Shown here piece after piece: positions 29,169 to 57,530 of a DNA stretch of 64,000 nt. Under the pieces are notes generated by a model. That model had not been told where the DNA came from. It made no database searches and saw only the letters and a list, made by a program, of their open reading frames with translations. The DNA comes from a phage. Position 1 is the stretch's first letter; each line of letters opens with the position of its first letter. Position numbers and translations under genes: made by a program. The stretch lies in sequence record PZ476263.1, one strand, 5' to 3'.

Positions 29169-29196
29169 AAGGTCACCTTCGGGTGGCCTTTTTTAT
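29169..29196 (+). terminator. intrinsic terminator (UUCG tetraloop)
   Basis: AGGTCACC-ttcg-GGTGGCCT followed by TTTTTTATT. Confidence 0.65.
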
Positions 29197-29213
29197 TATG
29201 CCTGTACATTTTG

Positions 29214-29222
29214 GATAAAATA
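29214..29222 (+). promoter_or_regulatory. late-type promoter element GATAAAATA
   Basis: ttTGGATAAAATAgtg directly after capsid terminator. Confidence 0.4.
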
Positions 29223-29275
29223 GTGTACTATTATAAGATAGGCCCTTAATATAATCAATGACGAAGGAGTTATTA

Positions 29276-29887
29276 ATGTCTAAATCAACTCACTTAGAAA
29301 TCTTTCGAAGTGAATATCACATGCTCAAATTCTTTGGGGAATATCTTGAAAAGTTAGATGTTAATACATCTGCTCGATTGGGAGCTTTCCTTTATAGTTA
29401 TGACGGAAACTTAGTTCTGGCCCGTGGCCTTTATGATTTTCTTTCTCAAATGGAAAAAATGACTGCCTTGGGTATTGATGTTAAATCATCTACTCAGAAA
29501 GGTACTAGCTTCTTGGTATTTTTTAAAGAAAAACCAAAAGCCCCTGAAAAATTCCGTCAAGATGTTAAAAAGATTGAAGCTTTGAAAGAAGCAATTGTAG
29601 TAGCTACTCCAGCTAAAACTATGGAGGAGACTATCCTTGTTTCTACGAAAGTAGAAGAAGAGGGTAAATCTGAAGAGACTGTGGAAGTAGAAGAAAAAGT
29701 TGTTAAGTCTTCTCGTAGTCAAGAAGAAAAAGCAGAGATCTTAGCAAAAGCGGAAGAACTTCGTGATGACAGTAAGAAAGCTGCTGCAAAAGCTGCACTC
29801 GAAGCTTTCGGTATGGAACACGGTGTTTCTCTGAGCAAAGGTAAAACCTTTGATGCGATGTTGGAAGATTTAGCTGCTGCACTTTAA
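29276..29887 (+). CDS. hypothetical structural-region protein
   Basis: AAGGAG RBS before ATG at 29276; charged Lys/Glu/Ala-rich C-terminal half. Confidence 0.4.
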   Translation: MSKSTHLEIFRSEYHMLKFFGEYLEKLDVNTSARLGAFLYSYDGNLVLARGLYDFLSQMEKMTALGIDVKSSTQKGTSFLVFFKEKPKAPEKFRQDVKKIEALKEAIVVATPAKTMEETILVSTKVEEEGKSEETVEVEEKVVKSSRSQEEKAEILAKAEELRDDSKKAAAKAALEAFGMEHGVSLSKGKTFDAMLEDLAAAL

Positions 29888-29940
29888 TCCCGCCTCAAGC
29901 CCCTACTCTGGGGCTTAAATTCCTAGGAGAAATTTAATAA

Positions 29941-32900
29941 ATGTCTGAATACAATGATAAGGTCGTAGAGGCTTTTGTTACTGCCCCAGATCCTGTCGTT
30001 ACTACCAGTGGTGGTGGAGTTATTTTTAACGGTATTGAAACTCGTGATACCGTTTCTACCACTTTGGTTGGTGATGGTACTGTAACTGCGCCTCTTCAAG
30101 CACAAATTCGTGTTTCTCGTCGAGCAGGTAACGCCCTTCAGGTAGTTCAAACTGAAAGTGAACAAGGTCTGTTTGCATCGGCAGGCGAAGCTAAAGTTTC
30201 CGTATCTGCTGTCAACGTTGCAAAATATGTTACAGCTGAAGAAGCTGCAAGTCAAGGTGATGCTGCACTGGAAGGTGTTTTAGTAGAACCTGTTCACTTA
30301 ACCACCACAGCAGCAACATCTGGATTACAGATCAGTGCAGATCCTCTGACTGGTAAAAAATCTCGAATCGGTCTTGTTGTTTCACCTGCTGCCACTAACG
30401 CACTGTCTTTAGAAGAAGATGGTTTGTCTGTTAAAGTGTCTCCAGCTATTGATAACAACATTCAAGTTCGTGAAGGTGCTCTGTATGTTCCTCCGAGCAA
30501 TGCAGAAGTATCTCCTGATTCCGACAACAAGCTTGAATTACGTTCCAATGGTCTTTATGTTGCCACTGTAAAAGGTGACAAAGGCGACCAGGGTGAACAA
30601 GGCCCAGCGGGTCCTCAAGGTGAAGTAGGTCCAGAAGGTCCGCAAGGTCCGGCTGGAGAGAAGGGTGACCAAGGTGAACAAGGACCTCAAGGTGACAAAG
30701 GGGATCAGGGCGTAGCTGGTCCAGCAGGTCCACAAGGTGCTCGTGGTCCAGAAGGTCCTCGTGGTGAAACTGGCTTGGGCATTAATGTTCTGAGTTCTTT
30801 AGACTCGGAAGATCAGTTGCCTTCTGTTGTTGATTTACAGAATGGTGATACCTATGTAATCGGACAAAACTTCTTTACTGTCATCACTGAAGGTGGTGTA
30901 AAACAGTGGAGAAATATTGGTAACTTCGCAGGCCCAGAAGGTCAATCTGCATTTGAAGTTGCTGAGACTGCTGGATTTGTTGGTACTGTAGATGATTGGT
31001 TAGCAAGTCTTCGCGGTGCTGATGGTATCGGTCTTCAGCTTCTTGGCGCTCTGCGTCGTGTGGAAGACTTACCGGAAGAAGGCAACCGACAAGGCGATGC
31101 TTATATCATTCAGGAACAAATGTATGTTTGGACTGGTGATGTAGATCGTTGGCAGATTGTAGGTCAGATTGGCCCAGAAGGTCGTTCTGCTTATCAGGTT
31201 TGGTTGGCGAATGGCAATACTGGATCACAAGTTGACTTCCTTAACTCACTCAAGGGTGAAAAGGGAGATACGGGTGAGCAAGGTCCTCAGGGGGAAAGGG
31301 GCGAAGACGGTAAAAACGCAAACGCAATCAACATCCTTGGTAGTGTAGCTGATGAAGCTTCTCTTCCAGAAGGCGCTGATGCAGGTGATGCCTACCTTAT
31401 TGGGACTAACGTCTTTGTATCAGACGGCGCTGGTAACTGGGAAAATTTGGGATCTTTCCAAGGCCCACAAGGTGATCAGGGTGTTAAAGGTGACAAAGGC
31501 GATAAGGGAGACAAGGGCGATAAAGGTGATAAAGGTGATGACAACTACACCATTGCTGTTGCTAACGGTTTCGTCGGATCTGTAACTGAATACCTTGCGT
31601 CCATTAAGGGTGAGAAAGGTGATGTAGGTGCAACTGGTCCCCGTGGTCTTACTGGTCCACAGGGTGAACAGGGTCCCGTCGGTGCTGGTCTGAATATTCT
31701 CGGATCTTTCGAGGATGAGTCTGAACTGCCAACTTCTGGAATTACCGAAGGTGATGCCTACCTGATCCAAGGATTCCTTTATATCTTTACTGGAGGTTCT
31801 TTTAAGAACGTTGGTGAAGTTAAGGGTCCTAAAGGAGATCAGGGCGATGTAGGACCTGCGGGTCCACAGGGTGAGCAGGGTATTGCGGGACCACAAGGCC
31901 AGCAAGGTTTAGTTGGACCTGCGGGTCCTCAAGGCGAGACTGGTCCACAAGGCCCAGAAGGTCCAGAAGGTCCTCAAGGTCCTCAAGGAGCGCAGGGTGA
32001 AAAAGGCGATATTGGTAGTGGCCTTATTGCTCGTGGAACTGTTGAAACATCTGTGCAATTGCCTAGTGACGCTGCAATCGGTGATTTTTACGTTGTAACT
32101 TCCGAAGGTATTGGCTATGCTTGGGACGGTTCTGATTGGGTAGCCACAGGATTAGCACAAGGACCTATAGGTCCTGCTGGAGCTGATGGTGCCAAGGGTG
32201 AAAAAGGCGACAAAGGAGATCAAGGAGAAAAAGGCGACGCTGGTACAGGTCTGACTCCGAAAGGTCTTGTTGACACATCTTCTGACTTACCTTCTTCTGC
32301 TGAAGTTGGTGATTTCTACGTAGCTGCTGACACTGGTATTGGTTATGCTTGGGACGGCACTTCTTTTGTAGAGTCCGGCACTGTACGTGGACCACAAGGT
32401 GAAGCGGGTCCTCAGGGCGAAGCAGGTCCAGAAGGTCCGCAAGGCCCTCAGGGTGGAATAGGTCCCGTTGGACCAGAAGGTCCGCAAGGTATCGCTGGCC
32501 CTAAAGGGGATAAAGGTGACGTTGGTAGTGGTTTAATCCCTCGTGGAACAATCCCGACTATGGCAGACCTTCCTTTGACTGGTGAAGTTGGTGACTTTTA
32601 CGTAGCCAATGATACGGGAATCGGCTATGCCTTTAACGGGACTGCTTTTATAGAGTCTGGGGTTGCTCGCGGCCCTCAGGGCGAGAAGGGTGAAACTGGT
32701 GCAGTTGGACCGCAGGGTCCGGTTGGTGCTACTGGTGCAATTGGACCGCAGGGTCCTCAGGGTGCTCAAGGTGAACAGGGCATTCAAGGTGAACGAGGAG
32801 AAATCGGTCCTCAGGGTGAGAAAGGTGACACTGGAGAGCAGGGTCCTCAAGGGGATATCGGTCCAGGGGTTGAGATCATCGGTAAATTCGATAACTCTTC

Positions 32901-33729
32901 CGAACTTCCTTCTACTGGTCAATTAGGTCAAGGTTATCTGATCCAAGGTGATTTCTGGGGATGGACAGGTACTGCTTATGAAAACTTAGGTCGTATTCAA
33001 GGTCCTGTAGGCCCTGTAGGTCCGACTGGTAACCAAGGTCCACAAGGTCCTGTCGGTGTTAAAGGGGATAAAGGTGACCAAGGTACTTTGTGGATTGTAT
33101 TCGCAAGGGATCCTTTGGTAAGTGATGGTCGTGTCAACGACTTCTTCCTGAACTCTTCTACTTTGGAATACTTCCGTAAAACGTCTGCAACTAACTGGGC
33201 TTCCCTCGGATACTTGGGTGGTGGTAACGTTTATGATGCACCTGGGGATGGTAAAGCTTACGTCCGTCAAGATCAGGGCTGGTCTGAATTAACTTACCCT
33301 GTCAATGAAGCACCTACCGATGGCGGTGATTATGTTCGTAAGAATGGTACTTGGAGCACTCTGGTTATTCCGGTAACGGAAGCTCCGCTGGAAGGTGGAT
33401 TCTACGTCCGTGAAAACGGTGAGTGGGTGAAACTCGACAAATACGACTTGCGTGTAATTGCTTCTACTGGTGTGGTTGATGCATCTCAGGCCAACAGCTG
33501 GACTTTGGACGGAACAACCAGTAAGTCCTTGGTGATTAATAACCTTCCCGAAGGCCGAGCAATGACTCTTGTACTGAGATTCACTGGTAACGGTGGAAAC
33601 ATTACTTGGGACTCTAAGATCGCATGGTCTAATGGTACAGCACCTGTGCTGGGAGTTACCCGTACTATCCTGACTCTGTTCTGGGATGGTGAGTTCCTTA
33701 CTGGTACTCAAGCAATGACTGTTGGTTAA
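29941..33729 (+). CDS. collagen-like repeat fiber protein (1262 aa)
   Basis: multiple G-X-Y runs ([25 protein letters not shown]...) alternating with eight ~35-aa modules (LP..G..GD.Y.....G..W); C-terminal triple YVR.NG.W repeats. Confidence 0.7.
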   Translation: MSEYNDKVVEAFVTAPDPVVTTSGGGVIFNGIETRDTVSTTLVGDGTVTAPLQAQIRVSRRAGNALQVVQTESEQGLFASAGEAKVSVSAVNVAKYVTAEEAASQGDAALEGVLVEPVHLTTTAATSGLQISADPLTGKKSRIGLVVSPAATNALSLEEDGLSVKVSPAIDNNIQVREGALYVPPSNAEVSPDSDNKLELRSNGLYVATVKGDKGDQGEQGPAGPQGEVGPEGPQGPAGEKGDQGEQGPQGDKGDQGVAGPAGPQGARGPEGPRGETGLGINVLSSLDSEDQLPSVVDLQNGDTYVIGQNFFTVITEGGVKQWRNIGNFAGPEGQSAFEVAETAGFVGTVDDWLASLRGADGIGLQLLGALRRVEDLPEEGNRQGDAYIIQEQMYVWTGDVDRWQIVGQIGPEGRSAYQVWLANGNTGSQVDFLNSLKGEKGDTGEQGPQGERGEDGKNANAINILGSVADEASLPEGADAGDAYLIGTNVFVSDGAGNWENLGSFQGPQGDQGVKGDKGDKGDKGDKGDKGDDNYTIAVANGFVGSVTEYLASIKGEKGDVGATGPRGLTGPQGEQGPVGAGLNILGSFEDESELPTSGITEGDAYLIQGFLYIFTGGSFKNVGEVKGPKGDQGDVGPAGPQGEQGIAGPQGQQGLVGPAGPQGETGPQGPEGPEGPQGPQGAQGEKGDIGSGLIARGTVETSVQLPSDAAIGDFYVVTSEGIGYAWDGSDWVATGLAQGPIGPAGADGAKGEKGDKGDQGEKGDAGTGLTPKGLVDTSSDLPSSAEVGDFYVAADTGIGYAWDGTSFVESGTVRGPQGEAGPQGEAGPEGPQGPQGGIGPVGPEGPQGIAGPKGDKGDVGSGLIPRGTIPTMADLPLTGEVGDFYVANDTGIGYAFNGTAFIESGVARGPQGEKGETGAVGPQGPVGATGAIGPQGPQGAQGEQGIQGERGEIGPQGEKGDTGEQGPQGDIGPGVEIIGKFDNSSELPSTGQLGQGYLIQGDFWGWTGTAYENLGRIQGPVGPVGPTGNQGPQGPVGVKGDKGDQGTLWIVFARDPLVSDGRVNDFFLNSSTLEYFRKTSATNWASLGYLGGGNVYDAPGDGKAYVRQDQGWSELTYPVNEAPTDGGDYVRKNGTWSTLVIPVTEAPLEGGFYVRENGEWVKLDKYDLRVIASTGVVDASQANSWTLDGTTSKSLVINNLPEGRAMTLVLRFTGNGGNITWDSKIAWSNGTAPVLGVTRTILTLFWDGEFLTGTQAMTVG

Positions 33730-33739
33730 TTTTCAATAA

Positions 33740-33760
33740 GGGGGCTTCGGCCCCCATTTT
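33740..33760 (+). terminator. UUCG-tetraloop hairpin, possible terminator/attenuator
   Basis: GGGGGC-ttcg-GCCCCC followed by ATTTT then AAGGAG RBS. Confidence 0.4.
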
Positions 33761-33771
33761 AAGGAGAAGTA

Positions 33772-34407: not shown

Positions 34408-34419
34408 TCGAGGTAATAT

Positions 34420-36036
<1,617 letters not shown>

Positions 36037-36074
36037 TTTAATTATAATTCACAGGGACGTGATTAGGAGATAAT

Positions 36075-37658
36075 ATGACGAATTCTGTAGTAGGTATGGC
36101 AGGTCACAATAATGGTGTATTTTATGGATACTCTCTTTATGACTTGGAGCAAAAAAGAAAGATAGCCTTTAAAGATTTAACTAAGGGTGACTCAGGGGCG
36201 AAGGGCGATAAGGGTGATCCTGGTCCAGAAGGTCCACAAGGTGATAAAGGAGATACCGGAGAGCAAGGCCCTGTAGGACCTCAAGGTCCTGCTGGTGCAC
36301 CAGGGCAACAAGGTGTGCCTGGTGAAAGAGGACCTCAAGGTCCCGAAGGCCCACAAGGCCCTCAAGGCCCAATTGGTCCCGAAGGACCAGTAGGACCAAT
36401 CGGCTCCCAAGGTCCCGAAGGTCCTAAAGGAGAGCAAGGTGAACAAGGCCCTTCTGGATCTCAAGGTCCTCAAGGATTAAAAGGGGATACAGGGGCACAA
36501 GGACCTCAAGGTCCCGTTGGACCCAGAGGAGAGACAGGTGCAACAGGACCTGTTGGACCTAAAGGGGACACAGGCCCAACAGGTCCAAAAGGAGAAACGG
36601 GTGAACAGGGACCCATTGGTCCGCAAGGACCTAAGGGTGATACAGGTCCCGTGGGTCCTGCAAGCTTAACCTTCAGAGGTTTCTATGAACCTCTTGAAGA
36701 ATACAACGAAAAGGATACAGTAGCTTATAATGGTTCTACTTATTTTGCGTTAAGAACCAGTACAGGAGCAACACCGGATATTTCTCCCGATGACTGGGCA
36801 TTACTTGCAGCTGAAGGTGCAGTTGGACCACAAGGACCTATGGGACCAGAGGGTCCGCAAGGTATCGCTGGTGCTCAAGGTCAGGAAGGCCCTATAGGAC
36901 CGCAAGGTGAACAGGGTCCGGTTGGACCTGTTGGCCCACAAGGCCCACAAGGTCCTGCGGGTCAGGAAGGAATAGAAGGCCCTCAGGGACCTCAAGGAGA
37001 AGAAGGCCCTATGGGACCTCAGGGACCACAAGGGATTGTAGGACCAACAGGTCCACAAGGCCCTCAAGGCCCCAAAGGGGACACTGGTGCAGTTGGACCA
37101 CAAGGTCCTCAAGGCCAACAAGGTCTTGATGGTCCACAAGGCCCTGCTGGTCCGCAAGGCGAAAGAGGTGTTACTGGACTAACCGGACCCCAAGGTCCCA
37201 AGGGTGATATCGGCCCTGTGGGTCCGGCTGGCCCTCAAGGTAAGGATGGTAATTCTTACACTATCTACAACTGGGGCAACATATCAACGGGCTATGGTGA
37301 GATGGTAATACCTGGTGTTACTAACACAGTATTCAGAGTGAGACGAGTAGGAACCACATTAGAATACAGTGTACTTAGTAAAGGTGGTGCGAATAGATAC
37401 CTTGACTTCCATACCATAATTCCAGCCCCCTCTACAGGGGGCGCTGTAATTATCCAATCAGGAAATACAACATTGACATCCTCCAGCTCTTTAAATGTTG
37501 TTACATCTGCACCTCCTGGTCTTGGTTTTCGACCAATATTCATCTCTTTAAAAGAGTGGGGAGATAGGGCAATAGTAACCATAGAGGTTTTCCACACAGG
37601 TAGAAGTGGAGATTCCAGTTACCCAATACATGTTCGTATGCTAACGACGAAGTATTGA
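36075..37658 (+). CDS. collagen-like fiber protein, paralog B (527 aa)
   Basis: N-terminal [25 protein letters not shown] runs, central [12 protein letters not shown] module, different C-terminal domain. Confidence 0.65.
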
Positions 37659-37662
37659 CATG

Positions 37663-37690
37663 AAAGCCACCTTCGGGTGGCTTTATTTTT
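37663..37690 (+). terminator. intrinsic terminator (UUCG tetraloop)
   Basis: AAAGCCACC-ttcg-GGTGGCTTT followed by ATTTTTAT. Confidence 0.65.
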
Positions 37691-37748
37691 ATACAAATGA
37701 CTTTCTTTTAATTTTGTGATAACATGTTTTAATACACTGGAGGATAAT

Positions 37749-38273
37749 ATGACTGATGCAGAAGTAGTACAGCTTGTTCGTAACTTTTTAGGCGGACTTA
37801 CTGAAGATGAAATGCCTGATAGCATGATTCTGTTTTTCTATAATAAATGGAAGGTTTGTTACGACTTAGAAAACAGGCCAGATCAATTTTCAATTATTCT
37901 GTACAATACCGTGCTTGATTGCGTACGTTGGCTTATTGTTCAGGAAGTTTCAAGTGGAGCTTCTGCAATTCGTGAACGATTCGAAAAAGTCGGTGATGAA
38001 ACCATATCCGTTAAATACGGGTCTAACTCTGGAAACTGGCAAGACTTCCTCGACTGGTTGACCGAACATCCTGAATATATTGATCCCTGCCTTAAGGATA
38101 ATGCCGTAGGTTCTGGGCTTGGTCTAATTATTATCGGTGGAACAAGAAAGGGGGAATTTGCAAGAGTTAAAAGAAATCGTGATTCTTTCAATGGCTTTAT
38201 GGAACCAGGTATTTTCCCTGCTGCGGGTACAAGAACTGGTGTCAAAAAGCGTAATCCTTGGATGGTCAACTAA
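37749..38273 (+). CDS. head-tail joining / neck protein (putative)
   Basis: ATG at 37749 after GGAGG RBS; position between fiber and tail genes. Confidence 0.3.
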   Translation: MTDAEVVQLVRNFLGGLTEDEMPDSMILFFYNKWKVCYDLENRPDQFSIILYNTVLDCVRWLIVQEVSSGASAIRERFEKVGDETISVKYGSNSGNWQDFLDWLTEHPEYIDPCLKDNAVGSGLGLIIIGGTRKGEFARVKRNRDSFNGFMEPGIFPAAGTRTGVKKRNPWMVN

Positions 38274-39897: not shown

Positions 39898-40007
39898 ATC
39901 CGGTTATTGATAGGCACTTGCTTATCAGTGACAAATGAGGGGCTTCGGCCCCTAATCAATTGGCACTTCCGTGCTAGTCAATAATCGTCTAGAAGCAGAG
40001 GATAAAC

Positions 40008-42727: not shown

Positions 42728-42780
42728 AAAGGGCTGGGGTCGAGAGACTCCGGCCTTTATTTTTATTATGAGGAGTTAAA

Positions 42781-45213
42781 ATGGCTGTAGAAGTAATTGC
42801 TACAACAAAGAACCGTGTCATATTTGAAACTGACAAAGGGTCTTATAAAAAGGCTCGTGATGAGATAAAGAAACTCTCTAACGAGTGGAAGAAGGCATCT
42901 ACGGAAGCCACCACCACATCTAGAAACTCTCCATCTGAGGTTTACAAGAAGTCTGCAAGAGAGATGCGACTTGTAAGTAAAAGATTGGCGGAGACTAGAA
43001 AACGGGAAGAGAAGCGAGAATCGGATTACAGGATCGCACTTGCCAAAAAGGAAGCGAAAGCAAAAGAGGCGGTAGCCAAAATATCTGCTTCGAGAATAAA
43101 ACAGCAGGTAAAAAGCTTAACTGCTGCAAGCCCTGGTTCAGCAGAGATGAGAAGATTCTACCAGCAGCAAGAAAAGGCTGCAAGAGCTGCATCGCGTTCT
43201 GCAAATAGGGCTGCTACGCCATTGCCACCTTTTAATGTTCAACGTGTGGAAGCTGCAAACCAGTTACTTTCCCGTGGACAACAACAGGCAGGTTCTGGTA
43301 TTGTTGGAGATCCAAATAGTCGTTTCCGCCCTGAACTGATTGCTGCACAGAACCGAGCTATGCAACAAAGTTCTCGTAATCAGGAAAAGTTACGTAAACA
43401 GCAAACAAGGGAAGAAGAAAGGCAGAAGATCAATGCTGCAAGGGCTGCTGCAAGGGTAGATGATGTTTCTGCACAACAGCGTATTCGATTAAGTTCTAAA
43501 TATGGAAGAGGCTACGCAGGTGCTTTGGGTAAAGATTCCGAAGGAAGGGGGATTGAGGATCTTAACAGACAATTCCGCGCTGGGACATTAACATCGGGTC
43601 AATACAGACAGAGCATCCAAGCATTAGAAAGACAGTTTAGAAGTGCCCAAGCAAGTGCAGGATCGTTTTCCTCTACTTTGGGGGATATTCGTTCTGGTCT
43701 TGTAAGTGCAACAGCAGCATATAGCGTATTCGCCGCAGGTGCTTCTGTTACTAGACAAGGACAATTCTTTGAAGGTATAAACGCCACCAGTTTACTTATT
43801 TCTGACTCTGCGGAAGAAGCAGGTCAAAGGGTTAAATTTGTAAGAGAAGAAGCTTATCGTTTAGGTCTTAACTTAAAAGAGGCATCTCAAGGCTTCACTC
43901 AGTTAGCGATTTCTGCCGAAGGTCAGATTTCAAAATCTGAAACCAATGAATTGTTCAGTGCATTCTCCGAATACTCAACGGCCTTGCAGGTTGATCCTGT
44001 TAGATATCAACGTGGTATTACAGCTATCCAACAGATCCTTGGTAAAGGCCAGGTAATGGCTGAAGAACTTAAAGGTCAGTTGTCGGAAGCGATACCTGGT
44101 TCTCTTCAGGTATTCTTAAAAGCAACTCAAGAGGCTTTTAATGATTCCTCTATAGATGTTGCTAAATTCCTGAAGTTAATGGAAGATGGTGAATTAAAAG
44201 CTTCTAAAATTATACCTCTTGTTGGTAAATATTATGCTGAGGCTGCTAGAAGGGGCGGTGCTCTTGATAAAGCTCTTGAAAGCAACCGAGTAGCTTATCA
44301 ACGTCTAAACCAGACTTTTGCAGAGTTCCAGAACAGAATATTCCAGGGTGGATTTGGAGAACAATTAACCCGAGTTTTCAACAATTTAGCCACTATTTTG
44401 TCAAGTAACGGTAATGTTGCAACAACTATCGGAAGATTCTTTGGTAATGTAATCGAAGGTTTTACCGACATGGTTCTCGAAGTCCATGACAACCTGGTTC
44501 TTCTTGATCGTGTCGTTACTTACTACTTCAAGAAGATTGGTGTAGAAGGTGATACCTTGAGACAGGTTTTCGACTGGGGTTCTTATCTACTCGGTATCGG
44601 CCTGTTTATCGGGGGTCTGACTAAGGTGTTTAACATCTTAGCGAAGATCGCAGGATTGAAAGGGGCCTTAAAAGAAATCCGTGGAACTCTCGGTGGTGAC
44701 CTTGCTACTGGTGGGAAAACCGGAACAGGTGCTAACACAACGGCTTCCGGCGGCGCAGGTACTGGTGGTACTACAGGAAAAACCAGTGTCGCAGGTAGAT
44801 TCAGCCAGTTGGGCAAACTCGGTAAGTTATTTGGCCTTGGTACGCTTTATTCCGCAGGATCAGAGATTAATGACCGCTTTATTCAGAGTGGTGAAAATCG
44901 TCTTGCAAATGCTGGGGTTGATACAGAAGCTTTCAAAAACACCTATGGCGTGACTCCGCAACCTGTAGGGCTTACGGATGTATTCAGAGAACTATTTGGC
45001 GGTTCTAAGAATATCACTGTAGATACTAATGCGATAAGCACCCCATCGGGAATAAGACCTTCTGGATTCCCTCTGACCGCTCCGCAAGAGCCACCTGAAG
45101 GTAAGATCACTGTTGAGATTAAGGCTGGCGAAATTCGTCAGTACATCAAAGCAGTTGTTGATGAAGAAAATAGATTCAATATCAACTTACTTACTCAGGG
45201 CGGTAACCAATAA
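42781..45213 (+). CDS. tail tape measure protein
   Basis: 810 aa, Ala/Gln/Arg-rich helical N-terminal half, Gly-rich hydrophobic segment, position after chaperones. Confidence 0.6.
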   Translation: MAVEVIATTKNRVIFETDKGSYKKARDEIKKLSNEWKKASTEATTTSRNSPSEVYKKSAREMRLVSKRLAETRKREEKRESDYRIALAKKEAKAKEAVAKISASRIKQQVKSLTAASPGSAEMRRFYQQQEKAARAASRSANRAATPLPPFNVQRVEAANQLLSRGQQQAGSGIVGDPNSRFRPELIAAQNRAMQQSSRNQEKLRKQQTREEERQKINAARAAARVDDVSAQQRIRLSSKYGRGYAGALGKDSEGRGIEDLNRQFRAGTLTSGQYRQSIQALERQFRSAQASAGSFSSTLGDIRSGLVSATAAYSVFAAGASVTRQGQFFEGINATSLLISDSAEEAGQRVKFVREEAYRLGLNLKEASQGFTQLAISAEGQISKSETNELFSAFSEYSTALQVDPVRYQRGITAIQQILGKGQVMAEELKGQLSEAIPGSLQVFLKATQEAFNDSSIDVAKFLKLMEDGELKASKIIPLVGKYYAEAARRGGALDKALESNRVAYQRLNQTFAEFQNRIFQGGFGEQLTRVFNNLATILSSNGNVATTIGRFFGNVIEGFTDMVLEVHDNLVLLDRVVTYYFKKIGVEGDTLRQVFDWGSYLLGIGLFIGGLTKVFNILAKIAGLKGALKEIRGTLGGDLATGGKTGTGANTTASGGAGTGGTTGKTSVAGRFSQLGKLGKLFGLGTLYSAGSEINDRFIQSGENRLANAGVDTEAFKNTYGVTPQPVGLTDVFRELFGGSKNITVDTNAISTPSGIRPSGFPLTAPQEPPEGKITVEIKAGEIRQYIKAVVDEENRFNINLLTQGGNQ

Positions 45214-45217
45214 TTCA

Positions 45218-45241
45218 AGAGGGCTTCGGCCCTCTTTTTTA
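45218..45241 (+). terminator. intrinsic terminator (UUCG tetraloop)
   Basis: AGAGGGC-ttcg-GCCCTCT followed by TTTTTTA. Confidence 0.65.
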
Positions 45242-45255
45242 TTGCTCGTATTCGT

Positions 45256-48752: not shown

Positions 48753-48757
48753 CACAA

Positions 48758-48787
48758 GGGAGCCTAGCGCTCCCTTTTCTTTTAATT
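48758..48787 (+). terminator. intrinsic terminator
   Basis: GGGAGC-ctagc-GCTCCC followed by TTTTCTTTTAATT. Confidence 0.6.
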
Positions 48788-48800
48788 CTCGGAATATTAT

Positions 48801-50327: not shown

Positions 50328-50337
50328 GGAGTTAATT

Positions 50338-50979: not shown

Positions 50980-50991
50980 TAGGAGAATTTA

Positions 50992-52626: not shown

Positions 52627-52631
52627 TAATC

Positions 52632-53144
52632 ATGAGAATGAATAATTTTAAAGTATACTCGCCAGAGGTTAAAGCTTTTGGTGAAGGAGTTCAATATTTT
52701 CAAGATGAAAAGGGAAGGGACTTCTATGAATCTCGTGGACTATTCAAAAAGAAATATGTAGTTTTCTTTGATGAGCACAATATAGTTCGTGGATGGGCAA
52801 AAAGTGAAGAAGTTACCCGTCTTCACCCAGGTGGTTTATCCGTTGTCGACCTGAATACCTTGCCGAAAGAATTTTCTTTACAGGATGGTGTGTGGTCATT
52901 CAATGGGAAACAGGTCGTTAAAGCCGACTATGATCCGGTATTTACCACGGAAGTAAGAAAGGCAGGTATTTTGCAAGTAATTGGGTCTGTTATCGCCCCA
53001 CTTCAAGATGCTGTTGAATTAGGAGAGGCTACGGAAGAAGAGACTGAAAAATACAATCATCTCCGCAGGATGAGAGTTAAAGTCATGCGTATTCCAGATA
53101 GCACTTGCCCCGCCGATATAGACTGGTCAGAGTTTACTGTCTAA
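52632..53144 (+). CDS. tail fiber assembly protein (gpG/Tfa-like), putative
   Basis: immediately after fiber gene; ~170 aa; C-terminal DIDWSEF. Confidence 0.4.
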   Translation: MRMNNFKVYSPEVKAFGEGVQYFQDEKGRDFYESRGLFKKKYVVFFDEHNIVRGWAKSEEVTRLHPGGLSVVDLNTLPKEFSLQDGVWSFNGKQVVKADYDPVFTTEVRKAGILQVIGSVIAPLQDAVELGEATEEETEKYNHLRRMRVKVMRIPDSTCPADIDWSEFTV

Positions 53145-53186
53145 TCTTACATTTATGTCGGGCTTCGGCCCGACTGTGGAGAATCT

Positions 53187-53519
53187 ATGATTGTTGATTT
53201 AATGGCAGTATTAAAAGCACTATGGGGCCTATTAACATTCATTCTTTTAGGTGCACTTAAGATATTTTATTCCGACTTCAAAAAATTGGAGTCCCGTCAA
53301 AGTGAACTTGAAAAGGATGTTCTGCGACTTAAAGAATCTGCGGTCACTAAGGATAGTATTGATGCGATCCTTGACCGAAAAATAAAACATATTACTGATA
53401 CCATTCAAGATATCCGCGAAGATATCACCGACATGAGAAGGGAGGCTAAGGAAGAGAACCATGCTCTTCAGCGTGATATTCGCGAATTGTTGAATAAGAT
53501 CATAGAGGGTCGTAAATGA
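53187..53519 (+). CDS. membrane-anchored coiled-coil protein
   Basis: N-terminal TM (LMAVLKALWGLLTFILLGAL) then charged coiled coil; 110 aa. Confidence 0.4.
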   Translation: MIVDLMAVLKALWGLLTFILLGALKIFYSDFKKLESRQSELEKDVLRLKESAVTKDSIDAILDRKIKHITDTIQDIREDITDMRREAKEENHALQRDIRELLNKIIEGRK

Positions 53520-53974
53520 TTACAGCCATAATATATGGCCTTTGTTTTGTAATCCTTGCAACCCGAAAAGAGAGTGGCACGAAGATGGTGGCGGGGATTT
53601 GCCTCGCCTACCTGATTATCGAAAATATAATTTTGTATTATTTCAGCGGTATGATCGTCTTTGACATTTCTCTTTATTTTAATGTCCTCTGGGCATTGGA
53701 TTCGATACTGCTTTTCACTTTAGGTTGCACAGTGAAAGGATTAAGACAAAAGCTAATAGTCGGACTCAGTATACCTTTTATGCTTGTCCAAGTGTTTGCA
53801 ATCCAATACCCAGAACTTTTCCCTCTTTGGGTGTATGAATTCGCTTTCAAGGATGCCCACAAATATTTCATAGAGGTATTTGTGTTTGTATTTTCTTGGA
53901 AGGATAATACAGTCCCTGAGTGGATCAGAACAGCCATAGTAATATTTCTGGTCTTGATTGCTCATTTGGTCTGA
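53516..53974 (+). CDS. polytopic small membrane protein
   Basis: 152 aa, 4-5 hydrophobic helices; ATGA overlap with upstream gene. Confidence 0.4.
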   Translation: MITAIIYGLCFVILATRKESGTKMVAGICLAYLIIENIILYYFSGMIVFDISLYFNVLWALDSILLFTLGCTVKGLRQKLIVGLSIPFMLVQVFAIQYPELFPLWVYEFAFKDAHKYFIEVFVFVFSWKDNTVPEWIRTAIVIFLVLIAHLV

Positions 53975-53996
53975 ACATTGATAATGAAGGTGATCC

Positions 53997-54257
53997 ATGT
54001 TAAAATTTCTGAAAGACCTAGTAACCTCCGCAATAGAACCAGATAAGGCTTCACATACGAAGTTTTGGTCCAATGTGGGTATGGCAGCTATGACTGCTGT
54101 CTTTTTATGGTATGGGTTTAATAATACATTACCAGAGTGGTACGTTTGGTTGTATGCCCCAACCGTGGTTGCTCCGCACCTGTTGAGTGACCTAATTAAC
54201 CTTCGCTGGGGATTATCTCTTAAAAAGGATAAAGACCCTTCAGACGAAAACAAGTAA
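53997..54257 (+). CDS. holin-like small membrane protein
   Basis: 86 aa, two hydrophobic segments, charged C-terminus KKDKDPSDENK. Confidence 0.35.
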   Translation: MLKFLKDLVTSAIEPDKASHTKFWSNVGMAAMTAVFLWYGFNNTLPEWYVWLYAPTVVAPHLLSDLINLRWGLSLKKDKDPSDENK

Positions 54258-54269
54258 GAGGAGACAACT

Positions 54270-57200
54270 GTGTCGTCTAATACCGATATTTTAGCTTTGC
54301 TTAATACGGAAGCGGATCAAGCTGTGGACCAAATCATTGAAGACTCTAGAAGACTTCACTTGGTGGTCAATGGTACAGGAACAGAACAAGTAGTTACTGA
54401 AGATGGTAGCCTGATTCCTACAATCCGTAAAGCAATTATTGATAATTTTTATTTCAAAACTCCACCTTTACCTTGGAGAAATGGAGGATCGGTTGTTGAG
54501 TTTAACCAACTGTATGCTTTCACCGATCTGAATGGGAATGTATCTTGGTGGTATGCTCCTGGTGCGACGAGTGCTTCTCCTGTTGTGATGAGAGATAGCC
54601 CAATCAATGATGGTAAGTTTAGACCATTCTTTGATAAAGGTAATATTCAAGACACTTACGCTCCGCTTCTTTCTCCGGCTTTCCGTGGAAACCCTACAGT
54701 ACCACTCCCTCCTGAGGGAGATTCTTCCTTTACCATTGCACCAACTGCATGGGTATCTCGCGAAATTGAAAAGGTCCGTGGTGAAATAGTTGAAGAATCT
54801 CGCGGTGAATTTCAAAACATTATTGTAAGGGACGATGCATCTCTTAAAGACCTCTACGTAAGTGGGGAAGCGATCTTTACAAGTGAGAGAATTGCTGCAT
54901 TGGATTCCGAGCTGTCGCTTAAGCGCTTAAGAATGGCAGGTCCACAAGCGGAGATGGCTTTTGAGCAAAATGGATCCTCCCCTGCTGCGGGACTTACCAA
55001 AAAGACAAATATAAAGCCTTATGAAATAACCACTGGCAGGTTCATTTCCAATACTGTGCAGGCTGACGAGATTAAAGTTGGTGATACCTCTCGTTCAGTA
55101 AACAGTTTGGATGTTGAAGGTTACATGCAGGCTGATTATTTACATCTGGAAGGTAATGCCAATAACGATGCGGAAAGACCTCAGTTAATTGTTGACGGCA
55201 TCGCAGAGATTAAAACTCTTCGCGTTATAGATACAATTGAAGGGTTGAAAGCTGACGTTGAAGGTCTAGATATTAACCCCAATAGTGTCGTAGTTGAAAG
55301 AACTTCAAGGGTAAAAGGTGCAGCAACTTTTGATTCTACCGTAAATGTATCCGGCACAACGACTTTAAATAATGTGGTTATTGAAGGTACGCTAACGGGC
55401 GCAGGGATCGGTGTTGACGGAAAAGATATTGCTCCTCGTTCAGTAAATGCGACTTCTGTAACTGTTGCACAAAATCTTAACGTAACTGGTGAGACTTTTG
55501 CAGCTGGGGATATGACTGTAAATAACCTTAGGGTTAACGGTGCACTCATCGCAGATATCGATATTGAGGGAAGTGATCTTAACTTCACCAACATTAACGT
55601 CTCAGAAAAAGCCACAATAAAAGACCTTGAAGTGACAGGAACTGTAACCGGATTTACTGTAAGTGTTGACGGAGAGGATATTTCTCCTGCAACGGTAACA
55701 ACCTCCGGCAATGTAACTGTTGGAAATAACCTTCGTGTCTCTGGCGATCTTACTGTAGATGGTGAACTGGCAATACCTGCCTTAGATACAGGAGAGATCA
55801 CTGCGGGAGATATTTCAGGTAATTCTTTAACCCTCGACGGCGATCTTACCACAGGTCCAGAGTCTACCACTCGTCTTCATAATCTCGTTGTCACAGGAAC
55901 GACCACAGGCCTCACTGTAACAGCGAATGTAGATGGACAAGACATTCTCCCATCCAGTGTCGCTACAGGCAATCTGGATGCATCTGGAGAGGTTTCAGCG
56001 GCATCTCTGTCGGTTACTGGGGCAACGCAAGTAAAAGACCTGAATATTACAGGGACTGTTACCGGATTACAGATCGATCTTTCTGACGAGGCGGTATCTG
56101 TTGATTCAATAACGGCAAGAAGAACTTCCAACTTCGCAGATATTAGTACGACAAATATCACAAATGCTGAAAAGATTACAACTCAGGATTTACAAATCCT
56201 CGGTGATCTTACAGATGCTGACGGTAACCCATTCTATGCCAATGTGACTGGTCAAGACATCTTACCTAACAGTGTTCAATCTGCAACATCTGTCCGAACT
56301 AAAACTTTACGTGTTGAAGAAACATCTCTTCTTGAAGGAACAGTTACTTTAAATAACGGATTGATTGTTACTGACGGGGACATAACTTCAACGCAAGGTA
56401 TTGCAAAGTTTAACGATGTTCAGATATTTGGTTCTTTAACAGATGCGAATGGTAATGGTATTGGCACTGTTGAAAGTATCCAAGGAAGAGATATTGCCCC
56501 TCGAAGTGTTGTGGCTCAAGTTGATGTTCAGGCCGCAGCCTTAGAAATAACAGGGCAGGCACATGTAGGTTCTTTGATTGTTGATGGAGAAACTACAACG
56601 AGCAGCATAAACATTTCAGGTATTGCAACTGCTAATGAAGTTATTGTTGACACGGTAAGGTCTGGTCAGATAACTTCAGGAAACGTAGTAATAACAAGAA
56701 CTGTAGGCTCTTCTGATCCGGCACTTGAAGTACGTGGCCCAGGGCAGATTCAAGGCGATCTCAGTGTTACTGGAACAATCTCTGGAAACATTGACCTGTC
56801 TGCCAAAGATATCAGTGTAAACTCTTTAACCTCAGCAGGAGCTATAACCGGAATATCTGTTTCTTCCAGCACTTCTGTAACTGGATTGTCTGCTACTTTT
56901 GGTGAAGATTACCCTGAAGCACCTGCCTACGGGATTACATCTTTATCTGGTGCAAACATTAATAAAAACCTTCGTGTTGGTGGTAATTTAACTGTTGTTG
57001 GGAACATCTCTGGAAACATTGATCTTAGTGGGAAGACTATCTCTCCGCAAGAGGTTGATGCAACCACGATTGGAGCTACAAATGCCAATCTGACCAACCT
57101 TACAGTTACCGGAAACCTGACTTTACCTTCAGTACCTTTGACTTCTCAAAGTCTTACGGCGGAGGGTCTTGTTAGTGCAGCTAAGTTTAGCACAACTCCA

Positions 57201-57503
57201 AAAGAAAATACAACCAGTTCTTCTACCTACATCCCTGACGGAACTACAAGCGTTTATAACGTTAACGTAGTAAACGATGTGGAAGTAAGAGCACCGTTGA
57301 ATTTGCTTACAAGTGCTAAAGGAGAATCAATTTTCCTGTTCTTCGAACAAGACTCCATCGGAGGTCATGCTGTAACCTTCGGTTCTGATTTTGTTATTCA
57401 TGGAAGTGAAACCATCAACACGGATCCTAGTTCAATAACTGTGGTAAACATGGTTTATCGTGGTAAAGGTCCTTTGATTGACGTTTTCATCACCCGTCGC
57501 TAA
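54270..57503 (+). CDS. long repetitive tail fiber protein (1077 aa)
   Basis: more than 12 tandem ~40-50 aa modules of the form G.DI.P.SV......L.V.G; Thr/Gly/Val-rich. Confidence 0.55.
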   Translation: MSSNTDILALLNTEADQAVDQIIEDSRRLHLVVNGTGTEQVVTEDGSLIPTIRKAIIDNFYFKTPPLPWRNGGSVVEFNQLYAFTDLNGNVSWWYAPGATSASPVVMRDSPINDGKFRPFFDKGNIQDTYAPLLSPAFRGNPTVPLPPEGDSSFTIAPTAWVSREIEKVRGEIVEESRGEFQNIIVRDDASLKDLYVSGEAIFTSERIAALDSELSLKRLRMAGPQAEMAFEQNGSSPAAGLTKKTNIKPYEITTGRFISNTVQADEIKVGDTSRSVNSLDVEGYMQADYLHLEGNANNDAERPQLIVDGIAEIKTLRVIDTIEGLKADVEGLDINPNSVVVERTSRVKGAATFDSTVNVSGTTTLNNVVIEGTLTGAGIGVDGKDIAPRSVNATSVTVAQNLNVTGETFAAGDMTVNNLRVNGALIADIDIEGSDLNFTNINVSEKATIKDLEVTGTVTGFTVSVDGEDISPATVTTSGNVTVGNNLRVSGDLTVDGELAIPALDTGEITAGDISGNSLTLDGDLTTGPESTTRLHNLVVTGTTTGLTVTANVDGQDILPSSVATGNLDASGEVSAASLSVTGATQVKDLNITGTVTGLQIDLSDEAVSVDSITARRTSNFADISTTNITNAEKITTQDLQILGDLTDADGNPFYANVTGQDILPNSVQSATSVRTKTLRVEETSLLEGTVTLNNGLIVTDGDITSTQGIAKFNDVQIFGSLTDANGNGIGTVESIQGRDIAPRSVVAQVDVQAAALEITGQAHVGSLIVDGETTTSSINISGIATANEVIVDTVRSGQITSGNVVITRTVGSSDPALEVRGPGQIQGDLSVTGTISGNIDLSAKDISVNSLTSAGAITGISVSSSTSVTGLSATFGEDYPEAPAYGITSLSGANINKNLRVGGNLTVVGNISGNIDLSGKTISPQEVDATTIGATNANLTNLTVTGNLTLPSVPLTSQSLTAEGLVSAAKFSTTPKENTTSSSTYIPDGTTSVYNVNVVNDVEVRAPLNLLTSAKGESIFLFFEQDSIGGHAVTFGSDFVIHGSETINTDPSSITVVNMVYRGKGPLIDVFITRR

Positions 57504-57505
57504 TA

Positions 57506-57530
57506 AAGGCCCTTCGGGGCCTTTTCTTTT
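57506..57530 (+). terminator. intrinsic terminator (UUCG tetraloop)
   Basis: AAGGCCC-ttcg-GGGCCTT followed by TTCTTTT. Confidence 0.55.

What the first reader, a model, noticed from the sequence alone, without database searches (positions are those of the whole stretch)
29169..57530. A family of C(UUCG)G tetraloop hairpins punctuates the late region
At least seven intergenic hairpins use the ultra-stable UUCG loop on GC-rich 6-9 bp stems (29169, 33740, 37663, 39938, 45218, 53157, 57506). A minus-strand example is at 3092. Some are followed by U-runs (terminators); others (39938, 53157) are not and sit directly before an RBS, suggesting roles as mRNA stabilisers, processing sites or attenuators rather than full terminators.
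Basis: seen in the sequence. Interest (0 to 1): 0.45.

Follow-up and report, generated by a model that had tools for sequence, protein, structure and literature searches.

The report
UUCG-capped terminators and intercistronic hairpins
The late-gene block of this rV5-like (Vequintavirinae) phage is punctuated by very stable UUCG-capped RNA hairpins; most look like ordinary leaky transcription terminators and two or three look like conserved hairpins inside operons, a pattern known in phages since the 1988 work on T4.

Summary
Eight intergenic C(UUCG)G hairpins are present, all in the sense orientation. Stem-6-or-longer versions number 10 in the window against 0.16 in shuffles.

The window is a new Vequintavirinae myophage, about 79-86% identical in DNA to E. 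coli phages A7_1, UPEC06 and LTH01.

Five hairpins (29168, 37663, 45217, 57505 and minus-strand 3099) have a U-tract and score as canonical intrinsic terminators. 33740 is borderline. 39938 and 53157 have no U-tract. This split is stable across genera.

The hairpins keep their positions in all relatives and are more conserved than the flanking genes. Stems change by compensation. The loop swaps among UUCG, CUCG, UCCG, GNRA and U-rich loops, so stability is what is selected, not UUCG itself.

Candidate late promoters (TGnTAAAATA, as published for rV5) follow only some terminators. The genes after 37663 and 57505, and the tape-measure gene after the non-UUCG terminator 42729, therefore need read-through, which makes these terminators leaky attenuators.

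39938 is not next to an RBS. It is the middle hairpin of a conserved three-hairpin leader of the tail-sheath gene.

Verdict: a new member of a known kind, of low interest. The sheath leader is the only mildly novel part.

The parts
29168..29191 (+). C(UUCG)G hairpin plus U-tract (UUUUUUAUUAU): intrinsic terminator 16 nt after the major capsid gene (28156-29151). It is followed by candidate late promoter TGGATAAAATA at 29212.
   Evidence: d-score +32.7; Phage_cap_E. Identical in A7_1, UPEC06, LTH01, W70 and phiTE. Annotated as a terminator in phiTE.
33740..33755 (+). C(UUCG)G hairpin 10 nt after the collagen-like fibre gene (29941-33729). It is followed by AUUUUAAGGAG, with the ATG 16 nt downstream. 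Borderline terminator or intercistronic hairpin.
   Evidence: d-score -5.2. Orthologues carry UUAG or UUCG loops. The U-tract is present or weak in the E. coli group and absent in Certrevirus and Seunavirus (cauaaggag, cuaaaggag).
37663..37684 (+). C(UUCG)G hairpin plus U-tract: intrinsic terminator 4 nt after fibre gene 36075-37658. There is no promoter motif before the next gene (37716), so read-through is required.
   Evidence: (d +23.2). Loop is CUCG in W70 and UCCG in phiTE/PBES02, with a compensated stem. Homology breakpoint to UPEC06 and LTH01 lies here.
39903..39932 (+). IR1: a 13-bp A/U-rich hairpin with invariant U.G wobbles. First hairpin of the tail-sheath leader.
   Evidence: All 16 one-sided changes keep pairing. 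The wobble pairs make it specific to the sense RNA strand.
39938..39953 (+). C(UUCG)G hairpin without a U-tract. Middle hairpin of the three-hairpin sheath leader, 54 nt upstream of ATG 40008.
   Evidence: d -27. Orthologues: UUUUA (A7_1/W70), GUAA (phiTE, L025), GCAA (PVP-SE1-size contig L026), AUA (L011), UUCG (EC152, Hena1), with compensatory stem changes.
39960..39977 (+). Third leader hairpin, TTGGCAC-TTCC-GTGCTAG. A look-alike of a sigma-54 -24/-12 element, which was rejected.
   Evidence: Outer pairs change G.U to A-U or G-C. The GG is lost in EC152, L011 and Av-05, and the spacing varies.
39978..39987 (+). Invariant single-stranded element UCAAUAAUCG, complementary to the 5' arm of IR1 (39901-39910). 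Unexplained.
   Evidence: 10/10 pairs in all 14 versions; alternative fold -35.3 against -42.8 kcal/mol.
45217..45236 (+). C(UUCG)G hairpin plus U-tract: intrinsic terminator 3 nt after the tape-measure gene (42781-45213). Followed by candidate late promoter TGTTAAAATA at 45255.
   Evidence: d +36.8; TMP_3. GGGGC-UUCG-GCCCC is kept in 10 of 11 lineages; the rV5-like phage has UCCG.
53157..53174 (+). C(UUCG)G hairpin without a U-tract, 12 nt after stop 53144 and 3 nt before SD GGAG (53178). ATG at 53187. Internal to a transcription unit.
   Evidence: d -19.7. Certrevirus orthologues are GGCCGGG-UAUUUU-CCCGGCC, GGCCGGGU-AUUU-GCCCGGCC and GGCCGGGC-GUUUU-GCCCGGCC. None has a U-tract and all lie 2-3 nt before the SD.
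57505..57524 (+). C(UUCG)G hairpin plus U-tract: intrinsic terminator 1 nt after fibre gene 54270-57503. The RBS of the next gene follows directly with no promoter motif, so read-through is required.
   Evidence: (d +27.7). UUCG is kept with changed stems in phiTE, PBES02 and EC152.
3099..3118 (-). C(UUCG)G hairpin plus U-tract: intrinsic terminator after minus-strand gene 3128-4174.
   Evidence: d +39.1. A near-identical hairpin (AGCCGCCC-UUCG-GGGCGGUU) is annotated as a terminator in phiTE, but after a different gene; orthology was not established.
42729..42758 (+). Non-UUCG (GAGA loop) terminator between the tail-chaperone genes and the tape-measure gene. Same punctuation system; read-through is needed for the tape-measure gene.
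   Evidence: d +27.7. GAAA, GUAA or UUUC loops in relatives.
48756..48776 (+). Non-UUCG (CUAGC loop) terminator, followed by candidate late promoter TGATAAAATA at 48800.
   Evidence: (d +21.3).
29897..29916 (+). Non-UUCG, U-less intercistronic hairpin (AAGCCCC-UACUCU-GGGGCUU), 24 nt before fibre gene 29941.
   Evidence: d -19.2. Conserved position with different stems and loops in relatives.
58779..58802 (.). Bidirectional terminator (AAAA/UUUU loop) at the convergent end of the late block.
   Evidence: d +34.3 on + and +51.2 on -.

Best explanation
The eight C(UUCG)G hairpins are RNA-level punctuation of the phage's operons. They are not copies of one repeat element.

Five of them (29168, 37663, 45217, 57505 and minus-strand 3099) are canonical Rho-independent terminators for the host RNA polymerase. 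Each has a G+C stem capped by the extra-stable cUUCGg tetraloop and followed by a U-tract. They lie just after the major capsid gene, two fibre genes, the tape-measure gene and one minus-strand gene with an RNase_H-superfamily match.

Together with three non-UUCG terminators and the candidate late promoters TGnTAAAATA, they divide the late block into transcription units. Where no promoter follows (after 37663 and 57505, and after the GAGA-loop 42729), the terminator must be leaky. It then works as an attenuator that lowers the dose of the downstream gene; the clearest case is the tape measure after the sheath and tube genes.

33740 is a weak or borderline terminator.

39938 and 53157 have no U-tract and lie inside transcription units. 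They most likely act as intercistronic stability or processing determinants: a barrier to 3'-exonucleases for the upstream mRNA segment and/or a protective 5' hairpin for the downstream segment after endonucleolytic cleavage. 39938 does this as the middle hairpin of a conserved three-hairpin leader of the highly expressed sheath and tube genes.

Shown here: the sequence anatomy, statistical enrichment, strand bias, positional conservation, compensatory changes and promoter-motif layout.

Inferred: termination, partial read-through and the stabiliser or processing role.
For: - Enrichment and exclusive sense orientation (8 of 8).
- Hairpin energies of -11 to -15 kcal/mol. The d'Aubenton-Carafa-type score is positive for 29168, 37663, 45217, 57505 and 3099. 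It is negative for 39938 and 53157 and about zero for 33740.
- Hairpins lie 1-16 nt after stop codons.
- Orthologous hairpins occur at the same gene junctions in A7_1, UPEC06, LTH01, W70, phiTE, PBES02, EC152, KpS11, Hena1, an rV5-like phage and IMG/VR contigs. U-tract status is constant per site.
- phiTE depositors annotated these sites as terminators. The rV5 and CB7 papers predicted 20 and 27 Rho-independent terminators and found no phage RNA polymerase gene (PMC3606486, PMC7344957).
- Hairpins are more conserved than flanking genes (0.85-1.0 against 0.45-0.92).
- Stems change by compensation and loops swap among UUCG, CUCG, UCCG, UUAG, GNRA and U-rich.
- TGnTAAAATA motifs occur only on the plus strand and only in intergenic DNA. 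They are positionally conserved and match the published rV5 late motif TggTAaAAtA (PMC3606486). None lies between 33740, 37663, 42729, 53157 or 57505 and the next gene.
- The sheath leader folds into three hairpins (z = -4.6). A covariance model finds it once per genome, always upstream of the sheath gene.
- Precedent: CUUCGG hairpins are abundant in T4 intergenic regions, and a 5' hairpin stabilises gene 32 mRNA (Tuerk 1988, as summarised in PMC8948821).
Against: - There are no transcript data. Termination efficiency, read-through and processing are all inferred.
- The d-score was computed with modern energy parameters, so its threshold is approximate.
- The late-promoter motif is only predicted. 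An unrecognised promoter could lie after a terminator, which would remove the need for read-through.
- For the U-less hairpins nothing distinguishes a stabiliser role from a translational role or a pause or non-canonical termination role.
- Much of the comparative support is conservation rather than independent covariation. The E. coli group is closely related, and IR1 and hairpin 3 are nearly invariant.
Confidence: 0.7

Rival explanations
1. All the hairpins, including 39938 and 53157, are transcription terminators or pause sites. Those without U-tracts would work non-canonically, as factor-assisted (NusA/NusG), Rho-coupled or modified-polymerase termination.
For: The same stem and loop design is used at U-tract and U-less sites. 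33740 shows that a site can gain or lose U-richness between lineages. The polymerase may be modified late in infection (Srd-like protein suggested for rV5, PMC3606486).
Against: The absence of a U-tract at the 39938 and 53157 sites is conserved across genera, while true terminator sites always keep theirs. Both lie just upstream of genes that must be expressed and have no promoter of their own. d-scores are -27 and -20.
Confidence: 0.12
2. The U-less hairpins act on translation rather than mRNA decay. A rigid hairpin 2-9 nt upstream of the Shine-Dalgarno would insulate the ribosome-binding site from upstream sequence or provide a standby platform, setting the translation rate of the downstream gene.
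For: 53157, 33740 and 29897 and all their orthologues end 2-9 nt before an (A)GGAG. The SD is left unpaired in the predicted structures.
Against: 39938 is 40 nt from its SD with another hairpin in between. There is no direct evidence. This rival is not exclusive of the stabiliser model.
Confidence: 0.15
3. The hairpins are DNA-level elements: conserved microhomologies or cruciforms that serve as recombination junctions for swapping tail-fibre and other modules.
For: At 37663 the homology to UPEC06 and LTH01 jumps from about 0.45-0.5 upstream (an unrelated fibre gene) to at least 0.88 from the hairpin onward. Hairpins are more conserved than flanking DNA.
Against: Strict sense-strand orientation of UUCG (8 of 8), U-tracts on one side only, G.U wobbles that would be A.C mismatches on the other strand, and compensatory stem changes all point to selection on RNA. 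Module boundaries coincide with gene ends anyway. At most this is a side effect.
Confidence: 0.03
4. The hairpins are copies of a dispersed repeat (REP- or MITE-like) or a chance pattern.
For: Four stems share GGGC-UUCG-GCCC.
Against: Only CTTCGG is invariant when the eight sites plus or minus 30 nt are aligned, and the flanks are unrelated. Each site has its own positional orthologue in other genera. Shuffles give 0.16 such hairpins against 10 observed.
Confidence: 0.01

Closest known systems
C(UUCG)G intercistronic hairpins of phage T4 (Tuerk et al. 1988 PNAS 85:1364; summarised in PMC8948821)
   Same: Same motif: (X)n-CUUCGG-(Y)n with a C-G closing pair. It is concentrated in intergenic regions of a large lytic coliphage that relies on host RNA polymerase. 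Some sites are terminators and others are non-terminating stability elements.
   Different: A different phage lineage (Vequintavirinae, not Tevenvirinae), so this is convergent use and not homology. The T4 numbers were not recounted here. I rely on the cited summary and on my own knowledge of the 1988 paper, which the library does not hold.
Predicted Rho-independent terminators of Vequintavirinae genomes (phiTE GenBank annotation; rV5, PMC3606486; CB7, PMC7344957)
   Same: The hairpins after the capsid, tape-measure and 54270-type fibre genes are orthologous and occupy the same gene junctions; the one after fibre gene 36075-37658 matches a positionally equivalent phiTE terminator although the upstream gene differs. 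The hairpin after the capsid gene is identical in sequence to the one in phiTE. The late motif TGnTAAAATA is the same.
   Different: Those papers list terminators from ARNold or TransTerm-type scans. They do not comment on the UUCG cap, on the U-less conserved hairpins (the 39938 and 53157 sites are not annotated in phiTE), or on the sheath leader.
Leaky terminator T-phi after the major capsid gene 10 of phage T7
   Same: A hairpin terminator placed right after the most abundant structural gene, with partial read-through supplying the downstream genes (T7 hairpin 'adapted to be inefficient', abstract of PMC9157156).
   Different: T-phi acts on T7 RNA polymerase. Here the polymerase is the host enzyme, and read-through is only inferred from the absence of promoters.
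Intercistronic mRNA-stabilising hairpins (REP in malE-malF, the puf operon hairpin, the T4 gene 32 5' leader)
   Same: Stable, U-tract-less hairpins inside polycistronic units, between genes needed in different amounts. In those systems they act as barriers to 3' exonucleases or as 5' protectors (own knowledge; gene 32 as cited in PMC8948821).
   Different: No decay or processing data exist here. These are single short hairpins, not REP repeats. The 39938 case is embedded in a larger three-hairpin leader with a possible alternative pairing.

Membership tests
cUUCGg (UNCG) tetraloop hairpin | Four-nucleotide loop UUCG closed by a C-G pair on a Watson-Crick stem | tested here: met
   All 8 intergenic sites read C-TTCG-G with 6-10 bp stems. 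ViennaRNA energies are -11.2 to -14.6 kcal/mol.
cUUCGg (UNCG) tetraloop hairpin | The motif is on the transcribed (RNA) strand | tested here: met
   8 of 8 are in the sense orientation relative to flanking genes.
Intrinsic (Rho-independent) terminator | G+C-rich stem-loop immediately followed by a U-tract (at least 5 U in 8 nt) | tested here: met
   Met for 29168, 37663, 45217, 57505 and 3099 (5-6 T in 8; d-score +23 to +39).
Intrinsic (Rho-independent) terminator | U-tract after the hairpin, at sites 39938 and 53157 | tested here: not met
   The tails are UAAUCAAU and UGUGGAGA (d -27 and -19.7). A U-tract is also absent in every orthologue. 33740 is borderline (AUUUUAAG, d -5.2).
Intrinsic (Rho-independent) terminator | Located downstream of a stop codon at the end of a transcription unit, on the sense strand | tested here: met
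   1-16 nt after stops of the capsid, fibre and tape-measure genes. The orthologous or positionally equivalent sites after the capsid, tape-measure, 54270-type fibre and phiTE_217 genes are annotated as terminators in phiTE.
Intrinsic (Rho-independent) terminator | RNA 3' ends map to the U-tract, with a measurable termination efficiency | not testable with these tools
   No transcriptome or Term-seq data for any Vequintavirinae phage were found.
Intercistronic mRNA stabiliser or processing hairpin (REP, puf or gene-32-leader type) | Stable hairpin without a U-tract, inside a polycistronic unit, conserved by compensatory change | tested here: met
   39938 and 53157: no promoter motif between the hairpin and the next gene. 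Compensatory stem changes across genera.
Intercistronic mRNA stabiliser or processing hairpin (REP, puf or gene-32-leader type) | Alters the half-life of, or generates processed ends in, flanking mRNA segments | not testable with these tools
   Requires Northern blots, 5'/3' end mapping and decay measurements in wild-type, rne and rnc hosts.
Dispersed repeat element (REP- or MITE-like) | Copies share sequence beyond the hairpin core | tested here: not met
   Only CTTCGG is invariant across the eight sites plus or minus 30 nt.
Sigma-54 promoter (for TGGCAC-N5-TGC at 39961-39975) | Invariant -24 GG and -12 GC with fixed spacing | tested here: not met
   Spacing differs by 1 nt between the window or phiTE and A7_1 or UPEC06. 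The GG is replaced (CAGCAC, TAGCAC) in EC152, Av-05 and L011. The changes fit an RNA stem instead.
Any Rfam family | Covariance-model match at or near the gathering score | tested here: not met
   The window-wide scan gives only tRNAs and a group I intron. The sheath leader gives nothing with E below 9.

The most novel reading that the evidence does not exclude
The 110-nt intergenic region before the tail-sheath gene (39898-40007) may be an undescribed cis-regulatory RNA of Vequintavirinae. It consists of three hairpins (IR1 with invariant G.U wobbles, the UUCG or GNRA-capped clamp 39938, and hairpin 3) plus an invariant single-stranded element that can pair instead with the 5' arm of IR1. On this reading it is a processing or refolding switch that uncouples sheath and tube expression from the low-copy genes upstream.
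Probability: 0.25. Interest if true: 0.5.

Novelty: new member of a known kind. Interest (0 to 1): 0.22.

Why it matters
The main value is for annotation. It gives a reasoned transcription-unit map (promoters, full and leaky terminators, internal hairpins) for a group of therapeutic-candidate coliphages that has no transcriptome data. It also shows that what is conserved at these sites is a stable cap and not UUCG as such. The terminator and read-through layout offers a testable account of how gene dosage is set between sheath and tube and the tape measure, and between the capsid protein and the downstream fibres. The conserved U-less hairpins and the sheath leader are compact natural parts that could be tested as mRNA stabilisers or insulators. 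None of this changes current understanding.

Tried and rejected
- Chance: rejected by shuffles.
- Dispersed repeat: rejected, because the flanks are unrelated.
- Known RNA family: none found.
- Sigma-54 promoter reading of TGGCAC-N5-TGC next to 39938: rejected on spacing and on loss of the GG in relatives.
- Sigma-70 promoter inside the sheath leader: none found in the scan. TCAATAAT fits the late motif poorly.
- IR1 as a DNA palindrome or operator: disfavoured, because four or five positions pair only as G.U on the sense strand. The TTATTGA/TCAATAA half-site idea is left open.
- Minus-strand TTCG hairpins at 35223 and 36374: dismissed as antisense of collagen-like coding repeats.
- Late-region specificity of UUCG (7 of 13 late against 1 of 10 early hairpins): only suggestive (Fisher P = 0.07).
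- Literature: no Vequintavirinae Term-seq or RNA-seq bearing on terminators was found. Tuerk 1988 and the T4 genome review are not held.
- More orthologues of the 53157 site from IMG/VR: only one useful locus was found.
- Pfam on the genes downstream of the hairpins: no information beyond capsid and tape measure.

Full report
**What the window is.**
- Megablast and tblastn place it in Vequintavirinae, the rV5-like myophages of about 140 kb.
- The closest records are E. coli phages A7_1, A5-4, W70, A73, LTH01 and UPEC06, at about 79-86% nucleotide identity over part of the region.
- Certrevirus phages such as phiTE follow at about 73%.
- Gene order from terminase to the last tail fibre is colinear with those genomes.
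- Pfam confirms the major capsid protein (28156-29151) and the tape measure (42781-45213).
- The late block is on the plus strand from about 21.6 to 58.8 kb. It is flanked by minus-strand early regions.

**Checking the observation.**
- A direct scan finds C-TTCG-G hairpins with 6-10 bp stems at 29168, 33740, 37663, 39938, 45217, 53157 and 57505 on the plus strand, and at 3099 on the minus strand.
- All are intergenic and all carry UUCG on the sense strand.
- CTTCGG is over-represented in the window: 38 against 22.4 +/- 5.
- Hairpins of this type with a stem of at least 6 bp number 10, against a mean of 0.155 in 200 dinucleotide shuffles.
- Seven of the 14 plus-strand CTTCGG in the late block fall in the 3.3% that is intergenic (P about 1e-7).
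- Two extra minus-strand hits, at 35223 and 36374, are the antisense of collagen-like coding repeats and are unrelated to the set.
- A census of all strong hairpins (dG of -9.5 or lower) shows 13 intergenic sense hairpins in the late block. Seven use UUCG. The others use GAGA (42729), CUAGC (48756), UUUUAU (21606), UACUCU (29897), ACUU (39903) and AAAA (58779, bidirectional).
- Aligning the eight sites with 30-nt flanks leaves only CTTCGG invariant. They are therefore not copies of a repeat.

**Terminators versus the rest.**
- I treated A-U closing pairs as part of the tail and applied a d'Aubenton-Carafa-type discriminant. Modern energies were used, so the threshold is approximate.
- 29168, 37663, 45217, 57505 and 3099 score +23 to +39, like the non-UUCG terminators 21606, 42729, 48756 and 58779.
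- 33740 scores -5. 39938 scores -27 and 53157 scores -20.
- The consensus scan independently lists 29168, 37663, 45217 and 57505 as terminator-like.
- These lie 1-16 nt after the stops of the capsid gene, two fibre genes and the tape-measure gene.

**Comparative evidence.**
- I fetched the late blocks of A7_1, UPEC06, LTH01, W70, phiTE, PBES02, EC152 (Seunavirus), KpS11 (Mydovirus), Hena1 (Henunavirus) and an rV5-like phage, plus IMG/VR contigs.
- Every hairpin has a positional counterpart at the same gene junction.
- phiTE's depositors annotated the sites after the capsid, tape-measure and 54270-type fibre genes, and the equivalents of 37663, 42729 and 48756, as terminators.
- The hairpins are more conserved than the flanking genes: identity 0.85-1.0 against 0.45-0.92.
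- The capsid-gene terminator is identical from E. coli phages to phiTE.
- The cap itself is interchangeable:
  - After the capsid gene the loop is UUCG, CUCG, UUCU, UUAU, UUAAU or GAAA.
  - At the 37663 site it is UUCG, CUCG or UCCG.
  - At the 33740 site it is UUCG or UUAG.
  - After the tape measure, GGGGC-UUCG-GCCCC persists in 10 of 11 lineages and is UCCG in the rV5-like phage.
- Stems differ by compensatory changes. Examples are AAGAGGGC/GCCCTCTT against AGGGGGC/GCCCCCT, and AAAGGCCC/GGGCCTTT against AGCCGCC/GGCGGCT.
- U-tract status is constant per site. It is always present at the 29168, 37663, 45217 and 57505 sites, never present at the 39938 and 53157 sites, and variable at 33740.
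- This pattern indicates selection for a stable RNA hairpin of a given functional class, not for the UUCG sequence.

**Operon layout and the attenuator inference.**
- The motif TGnTA(A/T)AATA occurs six times in the window. All copies are on the plus strand and intergenic (or intronic): 20914, 22090, 26004, 38307, 45255 and 48800.
- Two variants are at 21650 and 29212.
- The motif is positionally conserved in every relative and essentially absent from the other strand.
- It equals the late-gene motif TggTAaAAtA reported for rV5 (PMC3606486).
- Such motifs follow terminators 21606, 29168, 45217 and 48756. None follows 33740, 37663, 42729, 53157 or 57505, where the next RBS comes 3-31 nt after the hairpin.
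- The conserved genes 37716-38273, the tape-measure gene and 57542-58774 can therefore only be transcribed by read-through. This makes 37663, 42729 and 57505 partial terminators.
- The layout fits virion stoichiometry: few tape-measure copies after many sheath and tube copies.
- It resembles the deliberately inefficient T-phi after T7 gene 10 (abstract of PMC9157156).
- This step is an inference. No transcript data for the subfamily were found.

**The two U-less UUCG hairpins.**

53157:
- It lies 12 nt after a stop and 3 nt before GGAG.
- Its orthologues in Certrevirus are GGCCGGG-UAUUUU-CCCGGCC, GGCCGGGU-AUUU-GCCCGGCC and GGCCGGGC-GUUUU-GCCCGGCC.
- All of these lie 2-3 nt before the SD and none has a U-tract.
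- Seunavirus, Mydovirus and Henunavirus have only about a 10-nt spacer there and no hairpin.

39938:
- It is not adjacent to an RBS.
- The 110-nt region folds into three hairpins (MFE -43.2 kcal/mol; z = -4.6):
  - IR1 (39903-39932; 13 bp, with invariant U.G wobbles that make it specific to the sense strand).
  - The UUCG hairpin.
  - Hairpin 3 (39960-39977).
- These are followed by an invariant UCAAUAAUCG and then the RBS.
- A pattern search and a covariance model recover the element once per genome, always before the sheath gene. It is found in the window's group, Certrevirus, Seunavirus (including the PVP-SE1-size contig), Henunavirus and Av-05. It is not found in the rV5-like or Mydovirus genomes.
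- The middle hairpin carries UUCG, UUUUA, GUAA, GCAA, AUA or UUUUU on compensated stems, and is missing in one lineage.
- All one-sided changes in IR1 and hairpin 3 preserve pairing.
- The resemblance of hairpin 3 to a sigma-54 -24/-12 element fails on spacing and on loss of the GG.
- The invariant downstream element is fully complementary to the 5' arm of IR1 in all 14 versions. The alternative fold is about 7.5 kcal/mol less stable in the window sequence. I leave this unexplained.

**Mechanism.**
- For the U-tract hairpins the mechanism is standard intrinsic termination by the host polymerase. No phage polymerase gene is known in the subfamily (PMC7344957).
- The cUUCGg cap speeds and stabilises hairpin folding.
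- For 39938 and 53157, and perhaps 33740 and the non-UUCG 29897, the best-supported reading is intercistronic stability or processing determinants. This matches the T4 CUUCGG hairpins and gene 32 leader (Tuerk 1988, via PMC8948821) and, from my own knowledge, REP and puf-type hairpins.
- A translational insulator or standby role is a live alternative for those that abut an SD.
- Non-canonical termination is less likely, given the conserved lack of U-tracts just upstream of promoter-less essential genes.

**Novelty.**
- C(UUCG)G hairpins concentrated in phage intergenic regions, some of them terminators and some not, were described in 1988.
- The terminators of this subfamily have been predicted and, in phiTE, annotated.
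- This window adds a new genome showing the same design, hence 'new member of a known kind'.
- The modest additions are three:
  - The cap is interchangeable while the hairpin class is conserved.
  - Several terminators appear to be attenuators.
  - The sheath-gene leader is a conserved multi-hairpin element with no Rfam family.

Noticed in passing
window 21696-24420 (+): The large terminase gene is split into three coding pieces by two insertions. A7_1 TerL residues 70-121 map to 21903-22058, residues 119-137 to 22960-23016, and residues 155-496 to 23395-24420. Insertion 1 carries a 225-aa ORF (22148-22825, no Pfam hit) preceded by its own TGTTATAATA motif at 22090. Insertion 2 holds an Rfam group I intron hit (22986-23290, 78.7 bits). 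TerL is uninterrupted in A7_1, UPEC06 and LTH01, and is split by an HNH gene in phiTE.
   Followed up: partly
window 20914, 21650, 26004, 29212, 38307, 45255, 48800 (+): Candidate late promoters TGnTAAAATA. They are plus-strand only, intergenic, and positionally conserved across six genera. The motif is the same as the one published for rV5.
   Followed up: yes
window 39898-40007 (+): Conserved three-hairpin leader of the tail-sheath gene. Its invariant element UCAAUAAUCG (39978-39987) is complementary to the 5' arm of the first hairpin (39901-910), giving a possible alternative pairing. No Rfam family matches.
   Followed up: partly
window 37663-37684 and upstream fibre gene 36075-37658: Mosaic boundary. 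Similarity to UPEC06 and LTH01 is at background level (about 0.45-0.5) in the 200 nt upstream, where the fibre gene is unrelated. It resumes at 0.88 or higher exactly at the terminator hairpin.
   Followed up: partly
window 35223-35238 and 36374-36389 (-); CCGAAG on + at 36343/36379/36415: TTCG 'hairpins' on the antisense strand of collagen-like Gly-X-Y coding repeats with 36-nt periodicity. These are a coding by-product and not part of the hairpin set.
   Followed up: no
window 18967-20824 (+): tRNA cluster (Met, Tyr, Gly, Gln, Pro), plus a weak tRNA-like Rfam hit at 18967-19045 (35.8 bits) that ARAGORN does not call.
   Followed up: no
window 58779-58802: Symmetric AAAGGCTCCC-AAAA-GGGAGCCTTT hairpin with U-tracts on both strands. 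It is a bidirectional terminator where the late block meets a convergent minus-strand block.
   Followed up: partly
window 29897-29916 (+): Another conserved U-less intercistronic hairpin (loop UACUCU), 24 nt before the collagen-like fibre gene. Relatives have differently sequenced hairpins at the same place.
   Followed up: partly
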